The notes under the pieces are model-generated. The model made no database searches. It was not told the origin of the DNA and saw nothing but the letters and a program-made list of their open reading frames with translations. Made by a program: the position numbers and the translations under genes. From a virus, in IMG/VR virus record IMGVR_UViG_3300043409_001427, positions 18,104 to 82,103 of that record: a DNA stretch of 64,000 nt, one strand, 5' to 3'. Of the stretch, positions 7,301 through 46,748 are shown piece after piece. How positions within the stretch are numbered: the stretch's first letter is position 1; each line of letters starts with the position of its first letter.

Positions 7301-10300
7301 CTGTTGCTACGCCATTGGCGATAAACATATCAGAAGTTCCAAATTCTCCGGACTCGCTCATTGAGGTAATTCTATCAAATTTCATAGTTACAGAGGTTGT
7401 TCGATCTTGCTCAACTACTTCAGTGTTACTTTTTTCAGTAACTGAATATTTGTTAGTAAATTCTCGTATCTGCGTATGGTACGGTTTTACTTCGTTAATA
7501 TAGCTTTCATAGAATGCACTATCTTGTAGCTTATAAACCGGAGGTTGTGTAAGGTCTCCAGCAGTATTGATTACACTAATGAACGAAGTTTTGAACGCCC
7601 AGTCTAACATCTTCTGCTCAGTTAATGCATATCTAACAGCGGTAAAGAATAATAAATTCCATTTAGATTTTAATTCATTGATAAAGATATCATTTTTAAG
7701 AGCTGTAAATATGTAACGGATCTCAGTATCGGGAGTTTGATCCCATAAAGTCTCATCATAGGTGTTGAGATAATCCCAACCTAACCCACTATTCTTAACA
7801 TCCCAAATACTACTATTAATTTGTATAGTACCATTTTGTTTAAAAACGATATCATACTCGGGACCATATGTGCCCCTTACACCATTCTCTAATTTGTTAA
7901 GAACAATATAATTTCCGTCGCCACCGTTATTAACTTTAACATACTCGTTAGGTCTCAAACTTATTTCAGAAAGTTCGTACGGGCTTCCGACTACCGCAGA
8001 ATAAATTTGATATGACTTATAATCTGTACTAGTCCAATCGATGTAATCCCAATATAAAGTAGTGTTAAATGATTGTGTATGGGCTCGAACCCATGTTAGT
8101 TCTACATAGTCCCACTCGTATCTTGTCCATTTTCCATTATATGTATCGTCACTTTGTACAAATACAGTATGAGGGCGAGTCTTAAATGTAAAACCTGAGG
8201 CAAAATTCTTACCGCCAGTTATCACAGATGCATGTATGAATTGACCCTGGGCATCAACCATTGTTTGTATTCTTAATCCCGATCCATAAGAATTAATAGT
8301 GCTATCTTTAAAACTTGTTAGTTGGCTATCAAATGTTGTGGATCCGTTATCAAACACGGTGTCGTTTGATATTTCAGTTAAGACCGGACCTTCATACCCG
8401 ATAACAGTCCCGGTAATATCTTTAATTGGATTTTCTGTACCGTAGCCAAAACCAGGTTCTGCAATAGTAACGCTCGCAACAGATCCGTTTTCATCTACTA
8501 TGCAATTTATAGACCCTCGTTCAAACCCTGCTGTAGAAATAATTTCTAATGCACTGTTATCTTCAACTAAATGATCGTACTCATTTAAATGTTTATTTGG
8601 TATTTCTTCTTGAGCATTTAGATTTTTGAAACTATAATTGTTTGTTATTGGTACGGTTAATAGTACATTATTTGAAAATTCAACTAAGTTTCTAAGGGCC
8701 TCCATCCGATCTTTAAATAATGTTTGTTGTGGTCTAACTCCCAATCCATATCGTACACGATCTGATAATTCAGGATTTGGAACTAAGTTGCCCAACTCGT
8801 CGTGCCCTAATAAACTATCTAGTAGTTTCTTTTCAAAGATAGCAGGTGGCATGTCTTCGTCACTATCTTCCTTTAACAATATCCATTGAGTATGTCTTGG
8901 AGTGGTAGTTATTTCTAGATCTTTTGCAATGTTAATACTAATCTTTGAATCAACTGGTACATTACCAAGATTACTTAACATTATTGCATCTTTATCTATT
9001 ATTGAAATAAACCGTAATCCGTATGCGGTTGGGTCAGCAATAGCACTAGCAACTGCATAGGCGCTTATTCGTCGATCTTTTCTATCAGGAACTAATACTT
9101 TATTTTTTACCCAATAATAGTATACATTAGAATAGCTATTTGTTACCGAATCATAAACTTGCTTGACAGAAATTACACTATTATCTGGAAATTTAGGTTG
9201 CCCGCTAATTCCCTGAGAAAGCCCAGAGGAGGTATCTGATTGACTTGCCCATTCGCTAGGCAGCAATGTAGACCTTACCCATTCATAGATATCAATGGTG
9301 GCTCCTGGAAATAGTTTACCCCAATTATTTTTACGGTATTCAAGGTCTCCTTGTTCATACCAAATATACTTGGCGGTGCTTAAATCCCACCATAGCTTTC
9401 CAACATACTCATCGAGCCAATTCTTTTCTGTATCATTGTTAGTTCCTGCAACACCGATACTGTAAATTGCAGGATCACTCACTAGCTTAAACGAAAGTTC
9501 TTGTTCTGCTATCCCAGGAACTTTACCCTTCAGTGGATCATATATGTCAAGATATTCAATGATCTGCTCTTCTTCAGTATTAATTAATGCTATGCGTTTT
9601 AAATAAGTTGTGTCTACAAAATCATCCTGAGTTACAATCTTATCCCAAGGATACTTTTCAGAACTTGTTCTTTCAAATTTTAAGAAACCGCTATCAGCAT
9701 TTGAATTATCTAGCGCAGGAAATCCTACACAGATCATAGTATCGTCGACGGTCAAGCTACTTCCGTAGTTAGTACCCGGAGTTGAATATATGTAAGCGTC
9801 AGATAACTCTTGTCCATACACAAATCTAGAATCACTTCGTTGATAAAGATAAACAGAACCGCTGCCTGTTTCAGTTCCTTTAATTTTAGTAATGCCGCCG
9901 TCAAAAGTCATTAAGCTATTATCAAAAGTAGTTGGCAGGGTATGTTGTATACCAGTAGCAGAAATTGCCAACATATCTGTTGATTCAGTAACATCAATTA
10001 CAATACCAAACTCCATGCCTTCACCGATTACAGGATTTGTGATAGTTTGATCAAGAACAAATGTTCCGTTAGAATTTTTATAAACAAATACCTTGCCCAA
10101 TGAGTAATCGTCGTTAACTTCTGTTGGGGATGAAACAAACAGATACTCCCCCAGCGGACTCATTGATAGTGCGGTTCCAAACTTAGAGTCAGATCCAGTA
10201 AGGGTTAATATTTTTGTTAGAGACTTGTTATAAATCTCAACGGTGCCTGCTAATCCAACAGCAATAAAAGAAGCGTTGTCTGTACCTGCAATAGCGTTAA

Positions 10301-13300
10301 CCGTTTTTTCGGTAATCAGCGGCGTTCCTGAGGATATAGTAATTGTACCTGCATTATCCGATACTGTATACGAATAGACAGCATTTTCTGCACCCACTAA
10401 TACAAGTTTTGTAGTTGCGTTCCTTTCAACAAATATGCTAGAACCAAATTTAGTTACAGAATCTGTATTAGGACTATTAATATACGCAGTAGTTTTTACA
10501 ATTAATGATCTTGAATCTATTGCGTCAATTTGTACAATCCCCTGATTAGAGAATGCAAGTGGTGCTCCGGCAAAGATTGTGCCATAATTGGATCCTGTAA
10601 ATGGAATATCATCATAAACAATAACAGATCCAAACCCAGACGGTTGGTTAAGATAGTCGGCACCAAATCTATATTTTACTAACGGCCCAAAGGTTCCATT
10701 ACTGTCAGTGTCATACACCCAAATATTTCCATATTGAGCTCCTCTATAATTATCAGGAGATCCGACAACGACTATATTACTGCCCTTTCGTTGACTAATT
10801 GCAGAGCCTAGGTGAGGCTCTGCAGGAATACCCAATTCAACATACGATGTAGAAGAATAATTGTTTATTTTTTCATACACTTCCCAAGATCCAGAATTGT
10901 CAATCCAATATTTTGTTCCGGCTGGCAGTCTGTATAACTCTTGGTCAGACGGTAAGTTATCAAAACTAGATAATCTTGCACTGGCAAATACATACAACTG
11001 CCCTGGTGATAGTAACTCAGCATCTCGAATATTTGCTAGTGAACTTGCAACTGTGAAACGATTGGCGGAAGGTATTGCTATTACTGTGTGAATACCATTC
11101 ACTTGTTCGTTAAATTGGCTAACTCCAATAATCTGTCCAACTGATAAGTTGTGAGGATATTGAGAAGTAAATGTTATCGACTTAGCTGGTTCTGCAACAA
11201 ATACACCAATCAGCAATGCAGGGTTATATGTGTACCTAAGTACATCCCAAGATCCATCTTTCTTAAATCCTACCCATACTGTATTACCATCCTTTAATTG
11301 GTTGCTGTTAGCAATGTCCAACAAGCTGTCTTCATTGTACGCAGTCGCAGTAACATCAACTGACCTTACATACCCCGAATGTTGTAACAATAATATATCT
11401 TCAGTTGAAGTGGTATTAAATGTGTTTGCAGGATTGTAATTAGGAGGACTAATCGTTAAATTAGATGATAATGTATAATGAATTAAATCGTTTGCCGAAG
11501 CTGCCGGAACTTCCGAAACAAATTTAATAATTTGTGGATTTTCTAAAAAGGTTCCTTCAATCAACGGAGTTTCTATTTCTTGGTAAGTAGGAAAGGACCC
11601 AAAATTTCCAACTCTAAAGGCCCATTCTTCATTGTAAGAAATGTTACCCCTTAATACAGATGAACTAGCCTTGGCTAATTTAGAAATTGCATTTTGAGTT
11701 CCTTTTTCTCTAATAAACCCTTGATAAAATTTGTACTGAGATATAGTGTTAGGAAAAATATTATTTAGATAAACTCGAGGTGTATAGCCAGTAAGGTGTT
11801 GGCTCAGCCGTTGTTGCCCTTCATCAAAGTTATCAGAATCTAAACTGTAGAAATCTTCAAACTGGCTTATCTTATAATCAAAGTTTGGCAACAGAGCAGG
11901 CTCTGGTTTCTTATCTAGTACGGCCCATTGATTAAAATCAAAAGAAGATCGTCGTTCAATGTTTCTTATAGCAGAATAATATTTTCCATTAAATCGAACC
12001 GTCGTTCCGGCAGTGTAGGGTGTGTTAGGAACCCAATCAACTATTTCGGCGGTATCGTAAACAAATCCGGGACTAAAATAATCCCCGTTCCAATTTGCGG
12101 TTCTAAAGCCCACAAGTTTAATACGGCGTTGACGGCTTCCGGTTTCTAATTTATAAATTACATCATTAAAAATAGTGTTATTATCAAAAATAATTACATG
12201 TTCTTTCTGGACTAAATTTAATTGAATAAAATATATGCCGTCTGAATTAGGAGCGGTAGCGATTGTACAGGTCCCGTCATCTCTTGAAATATTTAAATCA
12301 GTTTTTAGAAATACAGACTTGTCTGCTCGTAACACTTCATAAGACTGAAACAAATTGTCAACAACTGCATTTGAACTCTTATAAACTACTTTATCAGAAA
12401 ATGGACTTAATGTAATAATACTCCCAGTGGCCCATGGTTGTGTAGACCAAAATAGGAACTCTTTGGCACTAAGATTCCAATCTAGAACTGAATCAAGATC
12501 TATATTATACTCAGAAAAAACAAATCCCCTGCTTTCAAGCCATCGACCATACCCAATAATAACATCGTAGATTTCCTGGATGCTAGAAAATGTGGTTCCG
12601 TACTCAATAGGAGTTACTGTAGATTCAAATGCCACTGCAACTTGCACAGAGGCGCCACCCTCAGTGGGCAGTCTTGGTACCTTTTGAAAATACTCAACAT
12701 TAAACACATTGCCTGCTCGGTGTCCAACTTTGGTTACATAAAAATCACTACCGTATTGTACATACTGACCTGTTTTATAAAAGTTGCCAACCGGAGCAGA
12801 CGATGCTGAAGTTGTATCGACAGAATTTAATCCGGTAGCACTAGCTGTTCTCGACGGCGCCCATACTACATAAGACACTGTCTCGCCGCCTACTGTGATA
12901 AATGTAGTTCCAAGATTTCTTATAGGTTTAAATATATTAAAATACCCCGATCTATCATATCCGGAAATATTATAACCACTCCGCGTTCTCTCAATGATCA
13001 TCCCGGAAGCAGTAACTGATAATATAGGATTTCCTACATTTAATCGCAATTTATAATTTTGAGACGGTAATATAGAACCAGGAGAAGTACTTGTTGGTGC
13101 GTAGGCATCAACAATTATTTGCAATGTATCTTTATCAGCAAACCCATTTAACTTGTAAATTAAATTATAACTTGCATAAGTTAGATCTTGCCTTAAATTT
13201 TTAATATAATCTTTATCTTCTTGCATTCCTATTTCAGAAAGGAATACACTATACCCGCTAGTCTGAGTTTTATTTTCGTTGTGAATAAACATCTCTGCTA

Positions 13301-20461: not shown

Positions 20462-22705
20462 TTAAGACCCGGACCTTATAGGGTTCCCGTTGCTGTCTGT
20501 CACAATTCCTCCAGACCCTGTTCCCACAATACCCGACGGTTTAACTCCATCTTTTTCAAATTTAGCCTTGTACTCTGCATAATATTGCTTTCGTTTTTCA
20601 AAGCCGTTGCGACCGCCGTTAACAAGACCAGTCACTGATACTGGATCGTCCCAAAATGCTGTCGTGTCTTGGTACGGTTGAGTCATTGTTTTATTTTTAA
20701 ATCCTTTAGGTTTATAAACATTGAAGAAATATAATACGGATTTACTTGCCCACTCAATGCCTTCTACTAGATCGGGTTGTTGTTCAAAGTCAATTCCTGC
20801 TTTAAAATATCCGGTCATTTTTCTATAAACATCTTTACCTGTAAGTTGTATAAAGCCGCGGCCTTTGTACTTAACACCGTCGCCTGCTGTTCTATTTCCT
20901 AAATCAGTACGACCTTCGTATTCTGCACCACTTGCATATTCTCTCAAGGCCCTAAAGTGATCACTTTCAACTTTACACTGGGACATCCAGGCCGCTAATT
21001 TTATCGGATCTGTTACACCGTTTGCTATTAAAGTAGCCTGTAGGTATTGCTCATTATCTGCCGCTTTTCCTTTTAGGGGGGCAGCAACCGGAGCATCATT
21101 TACTGGCGGCGCGGCACCGGAACCAGCTTCCGGTGCAGGTGCGGTTGGGCTAACACTGCTGTCTCCACCGGGTCGAGGAGTTACAACAACATTGGTACTA
21201 GCTGGGGTAAACTTTTCAGGATTAACATTCTCATGATGCGGCCAAGGTTCGTGAGTAGGAACCCGTTGCATTATAGTAGTGATAGTACCTGTATTATAAA
21301 ATTTGTCAGGCCCCCAACCGTAACTAATTTCTCGATTAGGTAATGCAAAGATATCTAACTTTTCTGGAACTTCGGCAGACTCGGGCTTATTAGGATCTGG
21401 TGCGGCTGGGCCGTTTAAGTGAATCTGTGTGGCTGCGGCGATTATATTGCCGCTTGCACCTAGCGAAAGCGTACCTGATGCTCCGCAGATTAAATTAGCG
21501 GCAGTTCCTATGCTGTATGCACCAGCCGATGCGTGAGAACTGGTTCCGCCTGCTTCAGAATTTATGTTACCGCCCGAAGAAACTCTAAAATTATCACCGG
21601 TTGAGATATTAAGATTATCACCAAATATTATCTTTCCACTAGTATCGCAAATAAGATAAAATCTACTCTTACAATTAACTTCTATTCCATCAAATGCATT
21701 CATGTGTATATTGCGGCCTGCTTCAAAGTTGATATCTCTATCTGCTCTAAAGTTAAAATCTTGTTCCGAATGTATACTGATGCTATCCTGAGCAAAAATA
21801 TCAATCTTTCCGTTGCTGGTTAATTCTATCCACGCACTGCCTTTACTATTACCAATGTAAATTAAATCCTGGCTATTATGCATGAGGATCTGATGTCCAG
21901 TCCTAGTGCGGATTCTCACCAATTCATTCTGTCCGTTAATATCGCCGTCGTCCATTACAAATGTAGTGCCGCCCAGCCTACTTACAGGTGCTTGACGCTT
22001 TTGTTCATAGCCAATCATACCGGTTTTGGCTCCTGCACTGGTGTCTAGTGGGCCCGGGGTGCTAATACCAAATACTGAACTTGGCACCTCTCTTCTTGCA
22101 CCGCTAGAAGTAACTCCTCTAACAGTATCTAACAACAATCCTTGTTCCACTAGTCTATCGGCAAACGGATGAACAGGTTTTTTAATAGTATCAACGTTAG
22201 GAACATTTAAATTCTGTGTACTTTTTAAATACTCAGCAACTGGTAGGTAAGTAGTTCCATACTTTTGTAACTGTTCAGAAGTTACAGCAGAATTTTGACT
22301 TGCGGCAATTCCCGGTACCATATGATTTTGGAATTGATCCGGAACACATCCCATCCAATAACCTTGATTTGGATCTCCGTCAACAAAGATAACCATAACG
22401 ATCGTTCCCACATCGGGAGGAATACACCACATACCATAGCTTTTCTGCACATCGTTAAAATTACTACTGTTATTACCTTCAAACCTAGGACTAGTCACTC
22501 CATAGAACGGACTGAGATACTTAACAACAAAAGTGTTTTCTTGAGAGTCAACGGTATTATGAATTGTCTTAACTAGGGCAACTTCTAATCCTCCCATATA
22601 AGTAGGATCTAGATGACTTGTTACTTCTGCTAAGAATGGGCCAGGTGAGGATAACAAACCACTTCCACCGCCTCTGCGTGTTGACATTCGTGTTTCTGTA
22701 GCCAT
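20462..22705 (-). CDS. gp5: Baseplate hub/central spike, gp5-like, with a C-terminal GH19 lysozyme/chitinase domain
   Basis: OB-fold motifs DPTYMG.L.V and YGMW.IPPDVG..V.V.F..GDPNQGYW.G, then RTRTGHQI and beta-helix repeats. The C-terminus reads AAWMSQCKVES..F..LREY..YEGR.DLGN...GDG.KYKGRGFIQLTG..VNGG.NG..KR. Confidence 0.88.
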   Translation of the reverse strand: MATETRMSTRRGGGSGLLSSPGPFLAEVTSHLDPTYMGGLEVALVKTIHNTVDSQENTFVVKYLSPFYGVTSPRFEGNNSSNFNDVQKSYGMWCIPPDVGTIVMVIFVDGDPNQGYWMGCVPDQFQNHMVPGIAASQNSAVTSEQLQKYGTTYLPVAEYLKSTQNLNVPNVDTIKKPVHPFADRLVEQGLLLDTVRGVTSSGARREVPSSVFGISTPGPLDTSAGAKTGMIGYEQKRQAPVSRLGGTTFVMDDGDINGQNELVRIRTRTGHQILMHNSQDLIYIGNSKGSAWIELTSNGKIDIFAQDSISIHSEQDFNFRADRDINFEAGRNIHMNAFDGIEVNCKSRFYLICDTSGKIIFGDNLNISTGDNFRVSSGGNINSEAGGTSSHASAGAYSIGTAANLICGASGTLSLGASGNIIAAATQIHLNGPAAPDPNKPESAEVPEKLDIFALPNREISYGWGPDKFYNTGTITTIMQRVPTHEPWPHHENVNPEKFTPASTNVVVTPRPGGDSSVSPTAPAPEAGSGAAPPVNDAPVAAPLKGKAADNEQYLQATLIANGVTDPIKLAAWMSQCKVESDHFRALREYASGAEYEGRTDLGNRTAGDGVKYKGRGFIQLTGKDVYRKMTGYFKAGIDFEQQPDLVEGIEWASKSVLYFFNVYKPKGFKNKTMTQPYQDTTAFWDDPVSVTGLVNGGRNGFEKRKQYYAEYKAKFEKDGVKPSGIVGTGSGGIVTDSNGNPIRSGS

Positions 22706-31633: not shown

Positions 31634-31831
31634 ATGAATGATACTATTACACAACTACAAACAACTTTTGCAGAATTCCTAGCAGAAGATGCTAAGTTTA
31701 CAGCGGGCAACAGTGCCGCGGGCACACGCTCGCGCAAGGCTCTAGCAGAGTTAAGCAAGTTAGTTAAAGCTCGCCGCAATGAAATTACTGCTGAGAAAAA
31801 TGCTCGCAAGGAAGCCAAGGCAGCAAAATAA
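31634..31831 (+). CDS. Histone H1-like (Hc1 family) small DNA-binding protein
   Basis: GNSAAGTRSRKALAELSKLVKARRNEI matches the Hc1-family GNKAAG.RARK motif; Lys/Ala tail. Confidence 0.75.
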   Translation: MNDTITQLQTTFAEFLAEDAKFTAGNSAAGTRSRKALAELSKLVKARRNEITAEKNARKEAKAAK

Positions 31832-31834
31832 TTA

Positions 31835-32269
31835 ATGACTTGGCACCACAAAGGGTCTATAGTTACAGAACTGCCTGAAGATTGTGTGGGATTTGTTTAT
31901 CTTATCTCATGTAATACCTCCGGCCGGATGTATATTGGCAAAAAATTAGCAAAATTTAGTAAAACGACCTACAAGACTGTAAAGTTAAAGAACGGCACCA
32001 AGAAGAAAAAGAAAATCAGAAGCAAAATAGACAGCGACTGGCAAGAATATTATGGCTCAAATATAGAACTTAACAAAGATGTTGAGTTACATGGCAAAGA
32101 TAATTTCACACGAGAAATATTACATTACTGTAAAAGCAAAGCAGAAACATCGTACATTGAGGCCCGCGAACAATTCGACCGCAAAGTATTAGAATCAAAA
32201 GAATATTATAACGGACAGATCTCAGTCCGTGTACATGGCTCCCACATAATCAACAAAATTGGCTCATAA
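31835..32269 (+). CDS. Stand-alone GIY-YIG (Seg-like) endonuclease
   Basis: GFVYLI.....GRMYIGKK, W..YYGS, F.REIL, E...Q and YYN. At 144 aa it has no obvious C-terminal DNA-binding domain. Confidence 0.8.
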   Translation: MTWHHKGSIVTELPEDCVGFVYLISCNTSGRMYIGKKLAKFSKTTYKTVKLKNGTKKKKKIRSKIDSDWQEYYGSNIELNKDVELHGKDNFTREILHYCKSKAETSYIEAREQFDRKVLESKEYYNGQISVRVHGSHIINKIGS

Positions 32270-32283
32270 GCGGTACTAAGCTC

Positions 32284-32645
32284 GCACTAGCTAATATCTT
32301 GTGCCCGGAAACCTGGATCTCGGATCGCAGGGAGGGAAATCTCTTGCCGCAAAGAGTACTTAATCAGCATCCTTTACAGGACCACGATCGCAAAATGCCT
32401 GCGGTTTGATTATTTGAATAGAGTGAATATAGGCCCAATGAGTGGATAAAACCACAGGTTTATGAATATGTTAGTGTATATTTGTAAGCTGCCGTCGTGT
32501 GTGAAAACACAAATAACTGAGCTCGAGGTACCGGATGACCGCCTCTGTAATGCTTTAACACTAGTGACTGTAAGAACTCAGATAATGTTCTTCTTTTTAT
32601 TTTGCCCGTGCAAACGGGCAATTGTGACTGACGAATCTAGATAAT
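32284..32645 (+). ncRNA. Candidate large structured non-coding RNA (unassigned family)
   Basis: About ten helices found by eye, two GNRA tetraloops, a G-U-rich long stem that pairs best on the + strand and a possible pseudoknot. Largest gene-free gap in the window. Confidence 0.55.
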
Positions 32646-32723
32646 ACTTAAATTACTTCGTAATATATCAATTAAAAAAATGCTTCGAGCGATTAGCGAA
32701 GAAGCAAACGAACGCAGTTCGGT

Positions 32724-32731
32724 TATAAATA
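32724..32731 (+). promoter_or_regulatory. T4-type late promoter TATAAATA
   Basis: Exact T4 late consensus, 29 nt upstream of the ATG at 32761. Confidence 0.7.
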
Positions 32732-32760
32732 GTTCTAATAACTTCTGGAATAATTTACCC

Positions 32761-35097
32761 ATGAGCATCAAACATATTATTGATCGATTAGATGAGATAG
32801 AACAAAATACCCCGACAATTAAGAAATATATTGTTGAGAGTGTATACAATGCTCCGGAAATGACTAAGCATTGGAGGAAACTCGATGAAGGGTTTGCCAA
32901 GGGCTATAGTCGATACTTAAATGAGGTTGCTCTAACTCCTGATCAGATACAAAATATCTTTAAACAGGCAGGTGGTACGGCAGGTGAAGCTCCAAAAGAT
33001 CCGAGCAAGCTAGCAGGGCTTGTTGATAAAATTCTTCCAACAGGCCAAGCAGCCAATTTAGAAAAGACATTACCTGAACCGGATGCAGGTCCTGTCCAAG
33101 GATTTGAACAAAAAGCCGCAGCCGCAGTACAGAACATCCAAGGTGCAGACAGCGCAACTAAGCAAAGTTTGATGCAATGGATCAAACAAGGTGTTGCTAA
33201 ACCAGAATCACAACAACTTATTCTAGCCGCGGTAGGCGCCGGATTAGGTACTATCCTAAGTAAAGTTGGCCCAATTATTAGTATGATACCCGGTGCAGGA
33301 CCATTTGTAGCTGCCATAACTGGTGCTTTAATTGCAGGAGCGATATCAGTTGCTAGTGCTAAACTACAAGGTAAAGACTGGAAAACGGCATTTAAAGGTG
33401 CAATTAAACCAGCATTAATGGGCGGTGCTGCCGCAGTTGTTGGTAATTTAGCGGCTACTGCGATAGGTACAGGTTTAGGTGCAATGACCGGCGGTCAAGA
33501 TCAAGCAGCCGCCCCACTACCTGGCGCAAGTTTAGGTGTTGGAAAAGAACTTCCAGATGGTGAAGTCATTAGTGCATTAGATTCAAGTAATCCAAATTCA
33601 GGAGTCACAATTCAAAGACCAGATGGCTCAACATACACAGTTAGTCGAGACACTGCCCAAGCTATGACGGGTCAAACTGGTATCAGCAATCAGGCAAATA
33701 TGACAGGACCTGTTAGCATGGGCGCCGCAAGTGATCCTCAAGCAGGGGTAAGCGATAGTGGAGGATCTGGTGCAAAAACAAATACTGATAAATCCTTAAT
33801 GAGATTAAAGGGATATGATCCAGATGCTCCTAATGAGGTAAAAGCATGGGACAAGATCACCGCAGGGAATAAAGACTTAAACACAATACCCAATATTGAT
33901 TCCGGTTTTAGTGGGGCGCAAGCAGGCGGACCCAAACCAACTATTGGACAAAACTTTGATCCAGGCTCCGCACCAATTGGCGCAAACGGACAACCAATGC
34001 GCCAAGTGCCTATGGATGCCCCTGCTGTTACACCTAGCACACCTAGTGATGGTTCGTATCAACAAGCCGCACCAATTGGTGCAAACGGACAACCAATGCA
34101 ACAAGTTCCTATGGATGCCCCTCCACCTAAAGGAGCCGGTATGGATCCTGAATATCTAGCGAAGATTGCTAGAGGGGAAGGCGGTCGTGCATTAATAAGT
34201 CAAGATGCCGCCAAAGCTGCCATTGCCTGGCAAGCGCAAAATGGCGGGCAGGTTATACCTCCTCCAGCACCATCAAGTAATGTAACATTACCGGGTGGAC
34301 TTTCTCAATACTATAAAGATAATCCTGGCATTAGAGAAAATGCAATCGATCAACAGGCAACACTTCGTGGTTGGCTTAAAAAAGATCAACAAGGTATTAC
34401 TATAAACTCGGTTCAATTAACACCTATGTTTGTTGAAGGCATTATGGATTTCTTTAAAGGTAAAGGTAAAGAAGCCGCACCTGCTGCCGCAGGTAGTGGA
34501 GTTACTCCTGATGCGTTAAACAAAGCCTGGGCAGACGCAGGCAGTCCAACGGACAGCGATGAAGTTTCTAAAGTATTACAGAGCGCCGGAGTCCCAGCAG
34601 AAACAGTTACAAAGATTTTTACAGATTTAAAAATACCCGCTCCTGGAGCATCTCCGGAAGCACCAAAAGATCCGGCCGCAACACCAACAGCGGCAGACGG
34701 CGAAACTCCCCCAGCACCAGCAGGAGAGAAACCGGCTGATGCTTCAGCCCCAGATGCTACAACACCGCCAGATGAGTTAGCCGATATTAAAAAGAATGCC
34801 GGACTTCCTACAACTCCACCTCCTACAGATGCTACAGCACCTGCTTCGACAACCGGTAGTGTTGATCCGGCAACATCTGCGGCAGTAGAACCTCCTCCGA
34901 CACCACAAGCAGAAAAACAATCTAAGGTAGGAGTTGGTCAAATTAATAAAGTTATTCCAACTTTGAGAGTTAGAGATTTAACCAGTGTTCAAAAGACTGT
35001 TGATAATACACTGGCAAAAAGACAATCGACAAAGCAACCAACAGCAGAAGGTAAATATGTTGGAGTTTACAGCAACTTTTTAGGAAGAGACATATAA
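32761..35097 (+). CDS. Large Ala/Pro/Gly-rich late protein with hydrophobic segments; putative internal head/ejection protein (start revised from 32680)
   Basis: Late promoter upstream, hydrophobic Gly/Ala helices, low-complexity linkers and a C-terminal motif shared with the next ORF. The function is inferred. Confidence 0.6.
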   Translation: MSIKHIIDRLDEIEQNTPTIKKYIVESVYNAPEMTKHWRKLDEGFAKGYSRYLNEVALTPDQIQNIFKQAGGTAGEAPKDPSKLAGLVDKILPTGQAANLEKTLPEPDAGPVQGFEQKAAAAVQNIQGADSATKQSLMQWIKQGVAKPESQQLILAAVGAGLGTILSKVGPIISMIPGAGPFVAAITGALIAGAISVASAKLQGKDWKTAFKGAIKPALMGGAAAVVGNLAATAIGTGLGAMTGGQDQAAAPLPGASLGVGKELPDGEVISALDSSNPNSGVTIQRPDGSTYTVSRDTAQAMTGQTGISNQANMTGPVSMGAASDPQAGVSDSGGSGAKTNTDKSLMRLKGYDPDAPNEVKAWDKITAGNKDLNTIPNIDSGFSGAQAGGPKPTIGQNFDPGSAPIGANGQPMRQVPMDAPAVTPSTPSDGSYQQAAPIGANGQPMQQVPMDAPPPKGAGMDPEYLAKIARGEGGRALISQDAAKAAIAWQAQNGGQVIPPPAPSSNVTLPGGLSQYYKDNPGIRENAIDQQATLRGWLKKDQQGITINSVQLTPMFVEGIMDFFKGKGKEAAPAAAGSGVTPDALNKAWADAGSPTDSDEVSKVLQSAGVPAETVTKIFTDLKIPAPGASPEAPKDPAATPTAADGETPPAPAGEKPADASAPDATTPPDELADIKKNAGLPTTPPPTDATAPASTTGSVDPATSAAVEPPPTPQAEKQSKVGVGQINKVIPTLRVRDLTSVQKTVDNTLAKRQSTKQPTAEGKYVGVYSNFLGRDI
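33970..34122 (+). repeat. Two ~54-bp direct repeats, 99-bp period, encoding APIGANGQPM(R/Q)QVPMDAP
   Basis: Near-identical copies start at 33970 and 34069. Confidence 0.9.
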
Positions 35098-35098
35098 T

Positions 35099-35806
35099 AT
35101 GCGTATCAATGAATTATTAGCAGAACAAGAACAACTAGATGAACTAAGCCTTAAGGGGTTAGGTCAGGGCATAGGCAAAGCAGTAGGTGCAGCCGCTGGG
35201 GGAATAGTTCAAGGCGCAAAAAATGTTTGGTCAGGTGCAAAACAAGGTTACGCCGCAGGGCAGGCAGCATTAGCGCCAGGGGCTGATCCAGCCGCTGATC
35301 CAGCCGCCGCAGGCAGTACTGCACCAGCAACGGGCAGCGGCGGCGCTGTAGCAACACCTCCAGCAGGACAAGCACCGGCAGCAACACCTCCAGCAGGACA
35401 AGCACCGGCAGCAACACCTCCAGCAGGACAAGCACCGGCAGCAACACCTCCAGCAGGACAAGCACCGGCAGCAACACCTCCAGCAGGTGGAGAAGCTCCT
35501 GCAAGTCCAGCAGTAGATCAAGCAAGTAAAGTTGGTGTAGGACAAATTAATAAACTTATTCCAACACTACGAACCCGAGATTTAAACAGCGTAAAGAAAA
35601 CTGTTGACGCTACTCTTGTTAAGAAACAAAAGCAACCGGCAGCACCAGCGGCAGCGCCAGCTAAACCAGGAGCGGTGGCACCAGCGGCGCCAACTCAAGC
35701 AGAGCTTGATGCTGATCGAGAAAGATTAATGGGACCAGATAACGGTGGCGCGAACGAAAGCAAGATCGTTAGATTTGAAAGTCGTTTCTTAGGAATGATG
35801 ATTTAA
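35099..35806 (+). CDS. Ala/Pro-rich late protein, putative internal head protein
   Basis: MRINELLAE..QLDE N-terminus; shares KVGVGQINK.IPTLR.RDL.SV.KTVD.TL with the upstream ORF. Confidence 0.65.
   Translation: MRINELLAEQEQLDELSLKGLGQGIGKAVGAAAGGIVQGAKNVWSGAKQGYAAGQAALAPGADPAADPAAAGSTAPATGSGGAVATPPAGQAPAATPPAGQAPAATPPAGQAPAATPPAGQAPAATPPAGGEAPASPAVDQASKVGVGQINKLIPTLRTRDLNSVKKTVDATLVKKQKQPAAPAAAPAKPGAVAPAAPTQAELDADRERLMGPDNGGANESKIVRFESRFLGMMI
35351..35487 (+). repeat. Perfect 30-bp tandem repeat (4 copies + 17 nt) encoding ATPPAGQAPA
   Basis: GCAACACCTCCAGCAGGACAAGCACCGGCA at 35351, 35381, 35411 and 35441, with a partial copy at 35471. Confidence 0.97.
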
Positions 35807-45754: not shown

Positions 45755-45816
45755 TAAATAATCATGTTCACCCCGTAAGGGAGTTTATGCGGTCCCCACC
45801 GCGTAGGCAATAGAAC
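45755..45816 (+). promoter_or_regulatory. Putative late promoter (TAAATA 45755-60) and structured 5' leader (three-way junction)
   Basis: GTTC/GAAC closing stem, CCC-GTAA-GGG hairpin and an 11-bp G-U-containing stem GTTTATGCGGT/ACCGCGTAGGC. Confidence 0.55.
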
Positions 45817-45842
45817 TGTCTAACAATTTAAGGAGAAACAAA

Positions 45843-46748
45843 ATGGGACGCCCTATTAAAAAACAATTTTTTGGAAATTTAAACCTAGGTGCTGCAACAA
45901 CTACTGATGATGGTATCGGTGGTGAAGGAGTCAGTTCAGTAATTACTATTGGAACTGCCGGCACACATTACTCACAAGGCGCAGTTGCAGTTTTCACTGC
46001 ACCGGGCTTGCCAACAGGTGTTACTGCAACAGCCGATCTTACAATCAGCACACCAGGCGGCGCTGTTACAGCTATCGCATTAACTAACAAAGGTTCTGGT
46101 TACACAGGAACAGCAACAATTACAATTACTACTGCTACTGGAGTTGCCTCATCCGCAACATTCAACAGCGGGTTGCTAGGTGCTAATACATTTACAGTTG
46201 CAAGCGTAACTGGTATTGTTGTTGGTATGACTGTTGCCGGTGCCGCAACTGGTTCTTCCGGAAAAGTACAAAGTATTAACTCTGGTCTAAAAAGAATTAC
46301 AACTACTGTAAACAATGCAAATACCTGGACTGACGCCGGTGACTTAACATTTACTGATTTAGGTACTGGTGCCCTGTTTATCACAACATTAACAACTACA
46401 GAGCAAAACGCTCTTAATGTTAGTGCAAAGTTACTTGCAAAAGATGGCGGTACTGCTGTTCTGGCATCTGACATCGTTAAACAAGAAGCAAGTCGTCGTT
46501 ATCTAGTTAAGAACACAGACGGAACAGGTCAGTGTATACTAGTTGCTAGTGATACACCGGCTTTTGGCCAAATGAATATGACAGCAACTGATTCTGGTAG
46601 CAACACCTACTGGGTTACTAAACTAACTGCTCGTCGTTGTACTTTGACCCAACGCACTGGTAGTACACATGAATTTGCCTCAGGCACAACAGCAGGTTGG
46701 AATATTACTGCCGCAGCCACAGGTGTTGTAAAACTCGGTAATGCTTAA
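45843..46748 (+). CDS. Thr/Gly-rich putative virion structural (decoration-like) protein
   Basis: MGRPIKK.FFG start, GSGYT motif and IVKQ..SRRYLV; has its own promoter, strong SD and terminator directly after gp23. Confidence 0.65.
   Translation: MGRPIKKQFFGNLNLGAATTTDDGIGGEGVSSVITIGTAGTHYSQGAVAVFTAPGLPTGVTATADLTISTPGGAVTAIALTNKGSGYTGTATITITTATGVASSATFNSGLLGANTFTVASVTGIVVGMTVAGAATGSSGKVQSINSGLKRITTTVNNANTWTDAGDLTFTDLGTGALFITTLTTTEQNALNVSAKLLAKDGGTAVLASDIVKQEASRRYLVKNTDGTGQCILVASDTPAFGQMNMTATDSGSNTYWVTKLTARRCTLTQRTGSTHEFASGTTAGWNITAAATGVVKLGNA

What the first reader, a model, noticed from the sequence alone, without database searches (positions are those of the whole stretch)
32270..32645. 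Candidate large structured ncRNA immediately downstream of a minimal GIY-YIG nuclease
Seen, hairpins: GCAC/GTGC (32284-304); CCTGGATC-TCG-GATCGCAGG (32312-31); CTCTT/AAGAG (32341-56); GTGG/CCAC (32442-55); TGTGT-GAAA-ACACA (32498-511); TTGCCCGT-GCAA-ACGGGCAA (32602-21). Seen, larger elements: a junction closed by TAATCA/TGATTA (32361-412) containing two hairpins; a ~15-bp stem with four G-U pairs (32455-91); CTGAG/CTCAG (32517-81) enclosing GAGGT/GCCTC. The loop TAGTGT (32472-77) is complementary to ACACTA (32558-63), a possible pseudoknot. G-U pairs and GNRA loops argue for RNA-level structure on the + strand. No terminator separates this region from the nuclease gene, which lacks the DNA-binding tail of typical Seg/I-TevI homing enzymes. 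Inference: this may be a nuclease-associated RNA (an RNP analogous in layout to HEARO/omega RNAs), a ribozyme, or an R-loop/primer RNA for a replication origin.
Basis: partly seen in the sequence, partly recalled or inferred. Interest (0 to 1): 0.8.

Follow-up and report, generated by a model that had tools for sequence, protein, structure and literature searches.

The report
Polynucleobacter-1 RNA, three times larger
This stretch is a copy of a catalogued RNA of unknown function (Rfam Polynucleobacter-1) that is really about 460 bases long with four pseudoknots, occurs in freshwater giant phages and in mobile islands of their likely hosts, and sits next to the nuclease gene probably through gene order, not partnership.

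Summary
Window 32279-32415 (+) is a full-length match to Rfam RF01718, Polynucleobacter-1 RNA (102 bits; cut-off 37).

The conserved, covarying structure is much larger than the 141-nt model. It runs from the GIY-YIG stop codon (32267-69) to about 32728.

The GIY-YIG gene abuts the RNA in 106. Eight have another ORF in between, and two have a PDDEXK nuclease instead.

GIY homologues in cyanophage P-SSM2 and phage Melnitz have no such RNA. Bacterial copies lack the nuclease. They occur in about 10% of sampled Polynucleobacter and Limnohabitans species. They pair divergently with a DUF6641 gene, often near a 188-aa tyrosine recombinase.

So the nuclease link is best read as synteny. The RNA looks autonomous.

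One feature stays unexplained. Two elements about 59 nt apart share a 7-9 nt core, at least 18 different variants across loci; in phage copies the two cores match each other, in bacterial copies usually.

Function is unknown. My best guess is a trans-acting structured RNA.

The parts
31835..32269 (+). Upstream gene: 144-aa protein made of a GIY-YIG domain only. It is a homologue of cyanophage P-SSM2 PSSM2_218.
   Evidence: Pfam PF19835 SegE_GIY-YIG, 110.5 bits, residues 3-129. 39% identity to PSSM2_218, E = 4e-14.
32270..32728 (+). The whole conserved structured RNA, about 460 nt: the extended Polynucleobacter-1 RNA.
   Evidence: Conservation profile over 89 unique homologues. Covariation over 76 pairs.
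32279..32415 (+). 5' domain, which is the Rfam RF01718 model (P1, P2, P3, and the P4 junction with P5 and P6).
   Evidence: cmscan 102.1 bits against a gathering score of 37, model positions 1-141, E = 9e-23.
32270..32273 (+). PK1, 5' strand (GCGG). It starts one base after the stop codon and pairs with the P3 loop CCGC at 32347-32350.
   Evidence: Pair types AU/GC/GU/UA at 32270-32350 and GC/AU/CG at 32272-32348; MIp 0.80 and 0.76.
32279..32292 (+). PK2: 32279-81 pairs with the P1 loop at 32290-92.
   Evidence: GC/AU/GU and GC/AU pair types.
32456..32490 (+). P8, a long hairpin. Its loop (32472-77) forms PK3.
   Evidence: All 10 stem pairs show compensatory changes.
32558..32563 (+). PK3, 3' strand (ACACTA).
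   Evidence: 6 of 6 pairs covary; 97.5% of cells paired.
32491..32497 (+). Nearly invariant GCCGTYG. Positions 32494-97 pair with the loop at 32536-39 (PK4).
   Evidence: 32496-32537 forms a standard pair in 99% of sequences (MIp 0.75) and 32497-32536 in 97% (MIp 0.62).
32519..32555 (+). P9a (32519-22/32552-55) enclosing P9b (32526-29/32541-44) and the nearly invariant GGTACCG..ACCGCC.
32564..32587 (+). Unit 1: GTGAC-N-CTC-AGATAAT-G.
   Evidence: Its variable core matches that of unit 2 in 98-99% of 89 phage sequences, across more than 10 variants. Bacterial copies keep the rule in most loci; a few differ at one edge position.
32602..32621 (+). P12, a GC-rich hairpin between the two units.
   Evidence: A hairpin of at least 4 bp in 67/67 sequences, 54 stem-loop variants.
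32624..32647 (+). Unit 2: GTGAC-N-TCT-AGATAAT-A.
32498..32511 (+). Lineage-specific inserted GAAA hairpin; not part of the conserved core.
   Evidence: Its inner stem columns are filled in only 2-4 of 68 aligned sequences; by eye the window and L084.
32682..32724 (+). 3' hairpins: P14 (stem with a conserved GA/GAA internal loop) and P15 (the terminal 8-bp hairpin).
   Evidence: All pairs covary.
32724..32731 (+). TATAAATA directly after P15. By my recollection this is the T4-type late promoter consensus.
   Evidence: An exact copy lies at this place in 26/102 loci and in 0/117 upstream windows; background is 0.039 per kb.
32760..35097 (+). Downstream gene. Its real start is probably the ATG at 32760, not 32680.
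   Evidence: By eye in the alignment, many homologous loci carry stop codons in the 32680-32759 equivalent; that stretch also holds covarying hairpins P14 and P15. Homologues start MxIxx[IL][IL] at the place equivalent to 32760.

Best explanation
The region encodes a phage copy of the Polynucleobacter-1 RNA (Rfam RF01718).

Shown:
- The RNA is about 460 nt, three times the Rfam model.
- It folds on the + strand into a 5' domain (P1-P6, PK1, PK2) and a previously unmodelled 3' domain (P7-P15, PK3, PK4).
- Many junction nucleotides are invariant.
- In the window it starts one base after the stop codon of the upstream gene. In other loci the upstream ORF's stop lies within a few to a few tens of nt of PK1.
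- It ends in a hairpin that is often followed by a TATAAATA (late-promoter-like) sequence.

Inferred:
- In the phage it is made as the 3' terminal part of the SbcD-SbcC-...-nuclease transcript, which I assume from T4 to be an early or middle operon.
- It acts as an autonomous, trans-acting structured RNA, either an RNP scaffold or an RNA-only machine. It is neither a partner of the GIY-YIG nuclease nor a regulator of the downstream gene.
- Its two copies of a variable 7-9 nt core (32580-86 and 32639-45), which are identical within each phage RNA and within most bacterial copies, are the specificity elements. They most likely base-pair with one external nucleic acid sequence present twice.
- The phage probably shares or exchanges this RNA with mobile islands of its Burkholderiales hosts. 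There the RNA is a stand-alone gene paired with a DUF6641 protein.
For: - Rfam match of 102 bits over the full model.
- Conservation to about 32728.
- Covariation: 92.4% of cells paired against 33-42% for slid partners; 60 of 76 pairs with double changes; 0/500 shuffles reach the observed values.
- PK4 and further pairs found by mutual information.
- Near-invariant G-U pairs fix the strand.
- Downstream context varies. About half the loci have a gene starting MKIxE[LI][IL]xE. The others show no long co-oriented ORF for several hundred nt or more, and the loci I read there carry a convergent gene.
- TATAAATA lies after the RNA in 26/102 loci and never just upstream.
- The RNA occurs without the GIY gene in about 26 bacterial contigs. 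It is found in 8/71 Polynucleobacter and 5/61 Limnohabitans species genomes.
- In those bacteria a divergent DUF6641 gene lies 200-280 nt upstream in 23 of the 26 contigs and about 580 nt upstream in a 24th. A 188-aa tyrosine recombinase lies downstream in at least 8.
- Neither protein is found in five phage records, one of them a 345-kb genome rated 99% complete.
- The two unit cores are identical within each phage RNA across more than 10 phage variants. About 8 bacterial variants also match between the units, apart from one edge position in a few loci.
- No complementary partner lies in cis.
- Four lake metatranscriptome assemblies hold the region together with its flanks.
Against: - No transcript ends, strand or abundance could be measured. 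The RNA-library data are contigs and may include DNA.
- GIY-RNA adjacency (106/120) is tighter than SbcC-GIY spacing, which ranges from 463 to 5048 nt.
- Where GIY is missing, another small nuclease (PDDEXK_15) takes its place in two loci. Some functional tie to a nuclease is therefore not excluded.
- No target for the twin elements was found.
- No promoter or terminator has been demonstrated.
Confidence: 0.6

Rival explanations
1. Nuclease-associated RNA. The RNA forms an RNP with the small nuclease encoded just upstream (GIY-YIG, or PDDEXK in some phages) and supplies the target recognition that the domain-only enzyme lacks. The twin 7-9 nt cores would act as guides.
For: - The GIY gene abuts the RNA in 106/120 loci, while its distance to SbcC varies ten-fold.
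- In L058 and L101 a PDDEXK_15 nuclease occupies the same slot, and no GIY is found in the 81-kb record.
- The protein has no DNA-binding tail.
- Bacterial copies often sit near another DNA enzyme that lacks its DNA-binding domains, a 188-aa tyrosine recombinase.
- The twin cores are variable and guide-like.
Against: - The same protein family in P-SSM2 (PSSM2_218, which overlaps the next gene) and in Melnitz (148-nt gap) has no RF01718 match anywhere in the genome. tblastn finds hits in 670 phage records, 655 of them covering at least 80% of the query.
- Eight loci have unrelated ORFs of 151-334 aa between GIY and the RNA.
- About 26 bacterial copies have no GIY, SbcC or SbcD within the held flanks.
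- No complementary target was found in the loci.
Confidence: 0.12
2. Cis-acting element. It would be either a riboswitch-like leader of the downstream gene (the 2010 paper scored the motif 'cis-regulatory: likely') or a 3' UTR that stabilises or terminates the upstream operon mRNA.
For: - Weinberg 2010 table: cis-regulatory 'y', riboswitch '?'.
- In the window the RNA begins one base after the upstream stop codon; in other loci the stop lies close to PK1. It ends in a hairpin followed by U/A-rich sequence.
- About half of the loci have a co-oriented gene 10-60 nt after it.
Against: - The downstream gene is not conserved. In roughly half of the loci no long co-oriented ORF follows closely, and the loci I read there carry a convergent gene.
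- A TATAAATA late-promoter-like sequence lies between the RNA and the downstream gene in 26 loci.
- Bacterial copies are stand-alone genes in a divergent intergenic region.
- 460 nt with four pseudoknots is far more than a stabiliser or terminator needs.
Confidence: 0.13
3. Molecular mimic. The phage carries a protein-less copy of an RNA that belongs to a host mobile island (DUF6641 + RNA +/- a small tyrosine recombinase). It uses the copy as a decoy to block or hijack that island's machinery during infection.
For: - The bacterial module DUF6641-RNA(-recombinase) is sporadic, present in about 10% of species and sometimes in two copies. That is typical of accessory or mobile DNA.
- Phages carry the RNA but neither protein.
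- By eye, one phage subgroup (L009, L015, L052, L058, L083) has an RNA that resembles the bacterial type.
Against: - Nothing shows that the bacterial island is a defence system or a satellite.
- DUF6641 has no fold or sequence relative of known function and no literature.
- The direction of transfer is unknown.
- The twin cores differ between phage and bacterial copies.
Confidence: 0.1
4. A new self-processing ribozyme, or an RNA primer or R-loop for a replication origin.
For: - Invariant nucleotides are dense in the junctions, and the fold is pseudoknotted.
- Its position in a DNA-metabolism gene block would suit an origin.
Against: - No match to any ribozyme family in Rfam at E <= 10.
- The hammerhead-like GAGC..GCGAA stretch at 32687-32700 lies inside a covarying helix (P14), so it cannot be a hammerhead core.
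- Origins do not need 15 covarying RNA helices.
- Bacterial chromosomal copies argue against a phage origin function.
Confidence: 0.05

Closest known systems
Polynucleobacter-1 RNA motif (Rfam RF01718; Weinberg et al. 2010, PMC2864571)
   Same: - Full-length match of 102 bits, with the same P1-P6 helices.
- The same freshwater habitat.
- The same upstream gene family (GOS11034 / PSSM2_218, which is the GIY-YIG mini-protein).
   Different: - The published model is 141 nt and is typed as an sRNA, with cis-regulation thought likely.
- Here the conserved structure is about 460 nt with four pseudoknots and twin variable cores.
- It is found in phage contigs, whereas the 2010 paper found none in purified phages.
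- In bacteria it is paired with DUF6641.
Large bacterial and phage ncRNAs of unknown or recently found function (GOLLD, ROOL, HEARO/omega RNA, OLE, raiA). This comparison is from my own knowledge.
   Same: - Several hundred nucleotides long, with many covarying helices and pseudoknots.
- Carried by phages and mobile elements.
- Function not obvious from the neighbouring genes.
   Different: - No sequence or structure match to any of them.
- It is not next to tRNAs.
- It is not next to IscB or TnpB.
IS110 bridge RNA and IscB/TnpB omega RNA (programmable RNAs of DNA enzymes). This comparison is from my own knowledge.
   Same: - A structured RNA encoded beside small DNA-acting enzymes.
- Short variable segments set in a conserved scaffold.
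- The two variable segments share the same core.
   Different: - No target complementary to the cores was found.
- The partner enzymes differ between contexts (GIY-YIG, PDDEXK, tyrosine recombinase) or are absent.
- The link is not obligatory.
Phage-borne RNA mimics, such as pseudo-ToxI and RNA anti-CRISPRs. This comparison is from my own knowledge.
   Same: The phage carries the RNA part of a host-element module without that module's proteins.
   Different: - This RNA is not a tandem repeat array.
- No toxin or CRISPR partner is present.
- No defence role of the host island has been shown.

Membership tests
Rfam RF01718 Polynucleobacter-1 RNA | Covariance-model score above the curated gathering score, over the whole model. 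| tested here: met
   102.1 bits against 37, model positions 1-141, window 32279-32415 on the + strand.
Rfam RF01718 Polynucleobacter-1 RNA | The model's helices are kept through compensatory changes. | tested here: met
   P1, P3, P4 and P6 covary in 68 homologues.
Rfam RF01718 Polynucleobacter-1 RNA | Lies downstream of a GOS11034 / PSSM2_218-like gene, in a freshwater source (2010 supplement). | tested here: met
   - The upstream ORF matches PSSM2_218 at E = 4e-14.
- The runs that hold the region are lake and freshwater metagenomes.
HEARO / omega RNA (IscB, TnpB guide RNAs) | A match to the RNA family and adjacency to an IscB or TnpB gene. | tested here: not met
   - No Rfam match other than RF01718 at E <= 10.
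- The neighbouring gene is a 144-aa GIY-YIG domain.
HEARO / omega RNA (IscB, TnpB guide RNAs) | An obligatory link between the RNA and its effector protein. | tested here: not met
   - GIY homologues occur without the RNA.
- The RNA occurs without GIY.
Group I intron with a GIY-YIG homing endonuclease | An intron core recognisable by the covariance model, interrupting a host gene. | tested here: not met
   - No Intron_gpI match.
- The flanking ORFs are separate, complete genes.
Riboswitch or cis-regulatory leader | A conserved downstream gene in the same transcription unit. | tested here: not met
   - The downstream gene varies between loci; in the loci I read without a close co-oriented ORF it is convergent.
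- A TATAAATA late-promoter-like sequence lies after the RNA.
Hammerhead ribozyme | A CUGANGA ... GAAA core left unpaired between three stems. | tested here: not met
   - The look-alike stretch at 32682-32705 forms a covarying helix, P14.
- No Rfam match.
Type III toxin-antitoxin RNA | Tandem, near-identical repeats next to an endoribonuclease toxin gene. | tested here: not met
   - Only about 24 nt of each ~59-nt period are alike.
- No such toxin is among the neighbours.
T4-type R-loop replication origin | A transcript that stays hybridised at a DNA-unwinding element and primes replication. | not testable with these tools
   Indirect argument only: chromosomal copies in bacteria and 15 covarying RNA helices speak against it.

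The most novel reading that the evidence does not exclude
The extended Polynucleobacter-1 RNA is a programmable RNA. Its two identical, fast-evolving 7-9 nt cores sit in conserved GTGAC...CTC/TCT frames about 59 nt apart. They would pair with the same short sequence in two DNA (or RNA) partners. In this way they would direct DNA enzymes that lack DNA-binding domains of their own: a 188-aa catalytic-domain-only tyrosine recombinase with DUF6641 in bacterial islands, and GIY-YIG or PDDEXK mini-nucleases in phages. That would be a bridge-RNA-like system for enzyme classes not known to be RNA-guided.
Probability: 0.07. Interest if true: 0.95.

Novelty: new member of a known kind. Interest (0 to 1): 0.5.

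Why it matters
**What is settled.** The finding is a member of a family catalogued in 2010.

**What is new.**
- The family has been under-described. Its real unit is a roughly 460-nt RNA with four pseudoknots, comparable in complexity to the large orphan RNAs GOLLD, ROOL and HEARO.
- It is carried by a whole clade of freshwater jumbo T4-like phages.
- It is also carried by accessory islands of Polynucleobacter and Limnohabitans, where it is paired with an uncharacterised protein family, DUF6641.
- The twin cores stay identical within each phage RNA (and within most bacterial copies) while changing between RNAs. This is a rare kind of constraint and points to base-pairing with an outside partner.

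**What follows.** These results give concrete handles for testing what this orphan RNA does:
- a full-length construct;
- the two cores to mutate in concert;
- DUF6641 and the 188-aa recombinase as candidate partners.

They also correct the Rfam model boundaries and the false start of the downstream ORF.

Tried and rejected
1. **Thermodynamic test.** The + strand MFE is no better than shuffles (z = -0.54), while the - strand gives z = -2.9. Rejected as uninformative for a pseudoknotted RNA.
2. **RNAalifold on the MAFFT alignment.** It found only part of the structure and proposed a 5'-end/32622-24 pairing without double changes. Replaced by PK1, which covaries.
Not supported.
4. **Partner for the twin cores.**
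   - G-U-tolerant and exact complements were sought within -700..+1200 nt, across whole loci and in the 64-kb window.
   - The only recurrent site is 32409-15. It is nearly invariant U-rich sequence and does not co-vary.
   - Hits at +550..+590 in one subclade lie in a convergent coding gene.
   - The single window hit at 21052 is in ordinary coding sequence.
   - Hits in L151 lie in an IS transposase gene.
5. **A third copy of the core in the P10 loop.** It does not co-vary.
6. **Hammerhead reading of 32687-32700.** Rejected, because the stretch lies in a covarying helix.
7. **Phage database.** blastn with the region gave no match.
8. **tRNA or tmRNA nearby.** None found.
9. **DUF6641.**
   - PDB sequence search: nothing below E = 0.36.
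   - AlphaFold model with pLDDT 86; Foldseek against PDB gave nothing below E = 0.18.
   - No papers.
10. **Metatranscriptome contigs.** Depth over 32170-32550 is about 1.5-3x that of the flanks in four runs. These are contigs summed over strains and may include DNA, so they are no evidence of a discrete transcript. Parts of the stretch without cover in two runs prove nothing.
11. **Full-length covariance model.** Not attempted: the build tool takes at most 400 alignment columns and refuses slow calibrations, and this alignment has 826 columns.
Full report
**Identity.** A scan of the whole window against Rfam gives a full-length match to RF01718, Polynucleobacter-1 RNA, at 32279-32415 on the + strand. 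The score is 102.1 bits against a gathering score of 37, over model positions 1-141. No other family matches the 31800-32800 stretch at E <= 10 beyond chance-level rows.

The window belongs to an 82-kb IMG/VR virus record that CheckV rates 23% complete, which implies a genome of roughly 350 kb. The family was described by Weinberg et al. 2010 (PMC2864571). Their table scores it as a likely RNA, likely cis-regulatory, with riboswitch status '?', from Burkholderiales and fresh water or estuary samples.

Their supplement adds three points:
- The 3' half is not always detected.
- Most copies lie downstream of genes of family GOS11034, possibly homologous to PSSM2_218 of cyanophage P-SSM2.
- No copy was seen in a purified phage.

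I found no later paper on the motif in the library.

**Check of the observation.** Of these, 68 sequences less than 80% identical to each other were aligned as A1.

I wrote a structure by hand with 76 pairs in 18 helices and counted it on A1:

| Measure | Observed | Partners slid by 1-3 columns |
|---|---|---|
| Cells forming a standard pair | 92.4% | 33-42% |
| Pairs with changes on both sides | 60 | 31-36 |
| Covariation score | 0.434 | 0.06-0.11 |

None of 500 shuffles reached any observed measure.

All six pairs covary, for example TAGCGT/ACGCTA, CAGCAT/ATGCTG and CTCTAAT/ATTAGAG. Hairpins P7 and P12 sit in length-variable stretches that MAFFT misaligns. Folding each sequence locally shows a hairpin in 59/68 and 67/67, with dozens of compensatory variants.

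- **CTGAG/CTCAG (32517-81).** It pairs in 15/67 and 37/67 sequences at two positions and never covaries. The real helix there is 32519-22/32552-55.
- **TGTGT-GAAA-ACACA (32498-511).** It lies on an insertion whose inner stem columns are filled in only 2-4 of the 68 sequences; by eye these are the window and L084.

The single-sequence energy test would have rejected the finding: + strand z = -0.54, - strand z = -2.9. It is uninformative here. Near-invariant G-U pairs fix the + strand: 32386-32406 is G-U in 61 sequences and 32529-32541 is U-G in 67.

**True extent and architecture.** Conservation begins at the GIY-YIG stop codon (TAA, 32267-69) and continues to about 32728.

New elements, all in window coordinates:
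- **PK1:** 32270-73 GCGG pairs with the P3 loop CCGC at 32347-50.
- **PK2:** 32279-81 pairs with the P1 loop at 32290-92.
- **PK4:** 32494-97 pairs with 32536-39, found by mutual information.
- **Single added pairs:** 32339-32357 and 32367-32383.
- **A UUCG-type hairpin (32653-64),** present in a subset of sequences.
- **P14 (32682-86/32701-05).** It has a conserved GA/GAA internal loop around a 2-bp stem. It superficially resembles a hammerhead core, but it lies in a covarying helix.
- **P15 (32706-13/32717-24),** the terminal hairpin.

By eye in the alignment, many homologous loci carry stop codons in the stretch equivalent to 32680-32759, and that stretch holds covarying helices. The 805-aa ORF called from 32680 therefore probably starts at the ATG at 32760. 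Homologues begin MxIxx[IL][IL] at the equivalent place.

**The twin cores.** Two units share a frame:
- GTGAC-N-CTC-AGATAAT-G (32564-87)
- GTGAC-N-TCT-AGATAAT-A (32624-47)

Three variable positions are the same in both units in 98-99% of 89 phage sequences: 32580/32639, 32584/32643 and 32586/32645. Their mutual information ranks among the top ten column pairs. More than ten variants occur, including AGATAAT, GGATGAA, GCATAAT, AGATGAG, GAATGAT and AGTCAAG.

Most bacterial copies keep the rule with other cores, such as AGCGAAAG, ATCGAAAG, ATCAAAAG and ATCGAAAT, at a spacing of 58-63 nt. A few bacterial copies differ at one edge position of the core.

I found no complementary partner in cis or in the fetched flanks, and no enrichment in the window. 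I cannot explain this identity constraint. The simplest reading is that both cores pair with the same external sequence.

**Link to the nuclease.** The upstream ORF (31835-32269) is 144 aa and matches only the SegE_GIY-YIG domain. It is homologous to PSSM2_218 (39% identity, E = 4e-14). The gene link the 2010 authors noted is therefore this one.

Among the 120 viral loci:

| Situation | Loci |
|---|---|
| GIY homologue ends just before the RNA | 106 |
| Unrelated ORF (151-334 aa, no Pfam family above its cut-off) lies between | 8 |
| No GIY; a 172-aa PDDEXK_15 nuclease in its place (L058, L101; PF24608, 97-99 bits) | 2 |
| Upstream flank too short to judge | 4 |

No GIY is found in the 81-kb record that holds L058. 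The distance from SbcC to GIY varies from 463 to 5048 nt, so GIY and the RNA travel together more tightly than GIY and SbcC.

Against a functional partnership:
- tblastn finds hits in 670 phage records, 655 of them covering at least 80% of the query.
- PSSM2_218 overlaps the next gene.
- The closest cultured homologue, phage Melnitz at 57% identity, is followed by only 148 nt.
- Neither P-SSM2 nor Melnitz has an RF01718 match anywhere, even at E <= 1.

**Downstream context.** In about half of the loci, a gene starting M[KR][IVL]x[ED][IL][IL]xE follows within 10-60 nt. From memory, this N-terminus resembles the T4 capsid-targeting sequence of internal proteins; I did not test that.

An exact TATAAATA sits right after P15 in 26 of 102 loci, and 24 of those are followed by an ORF. 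It occurs in none of 117 upstream windows, against a background of 0.039 per kb. From memory, TATAAATA is the T4 late promoter consensus.

In the other half of the loci no long co-oriented ORF follows for several hundred nt or more, and the loci I read there carry a convergent gene. The RNA is thus not a leader of a conserved downstream gene. It more likely closes the upstream SbcD-SbcC-...-nuclease unit.

**Bacterial copies.** The same pattern hit 52 places in GTDB species genomes. A profile HMM of A1 confirmed 26 as homologues. Several cover the whole RNA (HMM positions about 30-445), and they come mostly from freshwater Burkholderiales: Polynucleobacter, Limnohabitans and Comamonadaceae. 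Three tested genomes score 86-95 bits with the Rfam model.

The RNA is sporadic. It is found in 8 of 71 Polynucleobacter and 5 of 61 Limnohabitans species genomes, sometimes twice. No GIY, SbcC or SbcD homologue lies in these loci.

Instead, the bacterial context is:
- A DUF6641 gene (PF20346, about 145 aa) lies divergently upstream in 24 of the 26 loci, at 200-280 nt in 23 of them and about 580 nt in L173.
- A 188-aa protein consisting of the tyrosine recombinase catalytic domain alone (PF00589) lies co-oriented downstream. It starts 0.83-1.46 kb after the RNA start, in at least 8 of these loci and in both wider Polynucleobacter regions I fetched (L179, L180).

Neither protein occurs in the 120 phage loci, nor in five long phage records, one of them 345 kb and rated 99% complete. 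DUF6641 folds confidently (pLDDT 86) but has no sequence or fold relative of known function.

**Expression.** Four lake metatranscriptome assemblies contain the region together with both flanks. The unitig covering 32170-32550 has about 1.5-3 times the depth of its neighbours in all four. These are contigs, summed over strains, and DNA carry-over is possible. This shows only that the sequence is present in RNA libraries, not that a discrete transcript exists.

**Interpretation.** The RNA is the constant element across two unrelated contexts, and its protein neighbours change. The most economical reading is therefore an autonomous, trans-acting structured RNA carried by mobile DNA (phages and islands). 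The nuclease adjacency in the phage clade is then inherited gene order.

- the tight adjacency;
- the PDDEXK replacement;
- the recurring neighbourhood of DNA enzymes that lack DNA-binding domains.

The twin variable cores make a guide-like role conceivable, but it is unproven. A cis-regulatory role, a decoy role against a host island, and a ribozyme or origin role are ranked in the rival list.

**Earlier notes of this scan.**
- The idea that the P3 loop GCCGCAAA is a PolB-binding site (e1-6065932) is contradicted, because that loop forms the covarying PK1.
- The 'origin-like mini-hairpins' at 32642-32723 (e1-6065933) are P13-P15 of the same RNA.
- The bipartite repeat note (e1-6065939) agrees with my twin units.
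- The three-way junction at 45761-45816 (e1-6065942) is Rfam freshwater-2.

**Verdict.** What is new is its true size and fold, its phage and island distribution, the DUF6641 pairing and the twin-core constraint.

Noticed in passing
window 45768-45845 (+): Full-length match to Rfam RF02980, freshwater-2 RNA (61.5 bits; cut-off 49.9). This is a second catalogued orphan RNA motif in the same phage.
   Followed up: no
window 32680-35097 and 35099-35806: The 805-aa ORF probably starts at the ATG at 32760, because 32680-32728 is part of the RNA. It and the next ORF (235 aa) share a C-terminal motif (KVGVGQINK.IPTLR.RDL..V.KTVD) and are low-complexity A/G/P-rich proteins. Homologues in other loci start MKIxE[LI][IL]xE, which from memory resembles a T4 capsid-targeting sequence.
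   Followed up: partly
window 31634-31831 (+): A 65-aa ORF matches Pfam PF07432, the histone H1-like protein Hc1 (51 bits). It lies between SbcC and the GIY-YIG gene and is conserved in a subset of the related phage loci.
   Followed up: no
L058:1669-2184:- and L101:13758-14273:-: In two related phage contigs, a 172-aa PDDEXK_15 nuclease (PF24608) sits directly before the RNA in the slot that GIY-YIG fills elsewhere.
   Followed up: partly
L179 (Polynucleobacter chromosome region) 9138-11826; also L180, L131, L173, L177: Bacterial module: a divergent DUF6641 gene, then the RNA, then a variable ORF, then a 188-aa tyrosine recombinase with the catalytic domain only. It is present in about 10% of sampled Polynucleobacter and Limnohabitans species, sometimes in two copies.
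   Followed up: partly
L109:11185-11657 (alignment A1 columns 286-500): One phage contig has a natural deletion of about 130 nt. It removes GCCGTYG, P9-P10, the PK3 3' strand, unit 1 and P12, but keeps unit 2 and the 3' hairpins.
   Followed up: no
L035:5690-6487:- and L107:10743-11585:+: The ORFs inserted between GIY-YIG and the RNA in these loci begin with a GCS[YF]TAG motif. From memory this is reminiscent of SGNH/GDSL hydrolases. Pfam gave no significant match.
   Followed up: no
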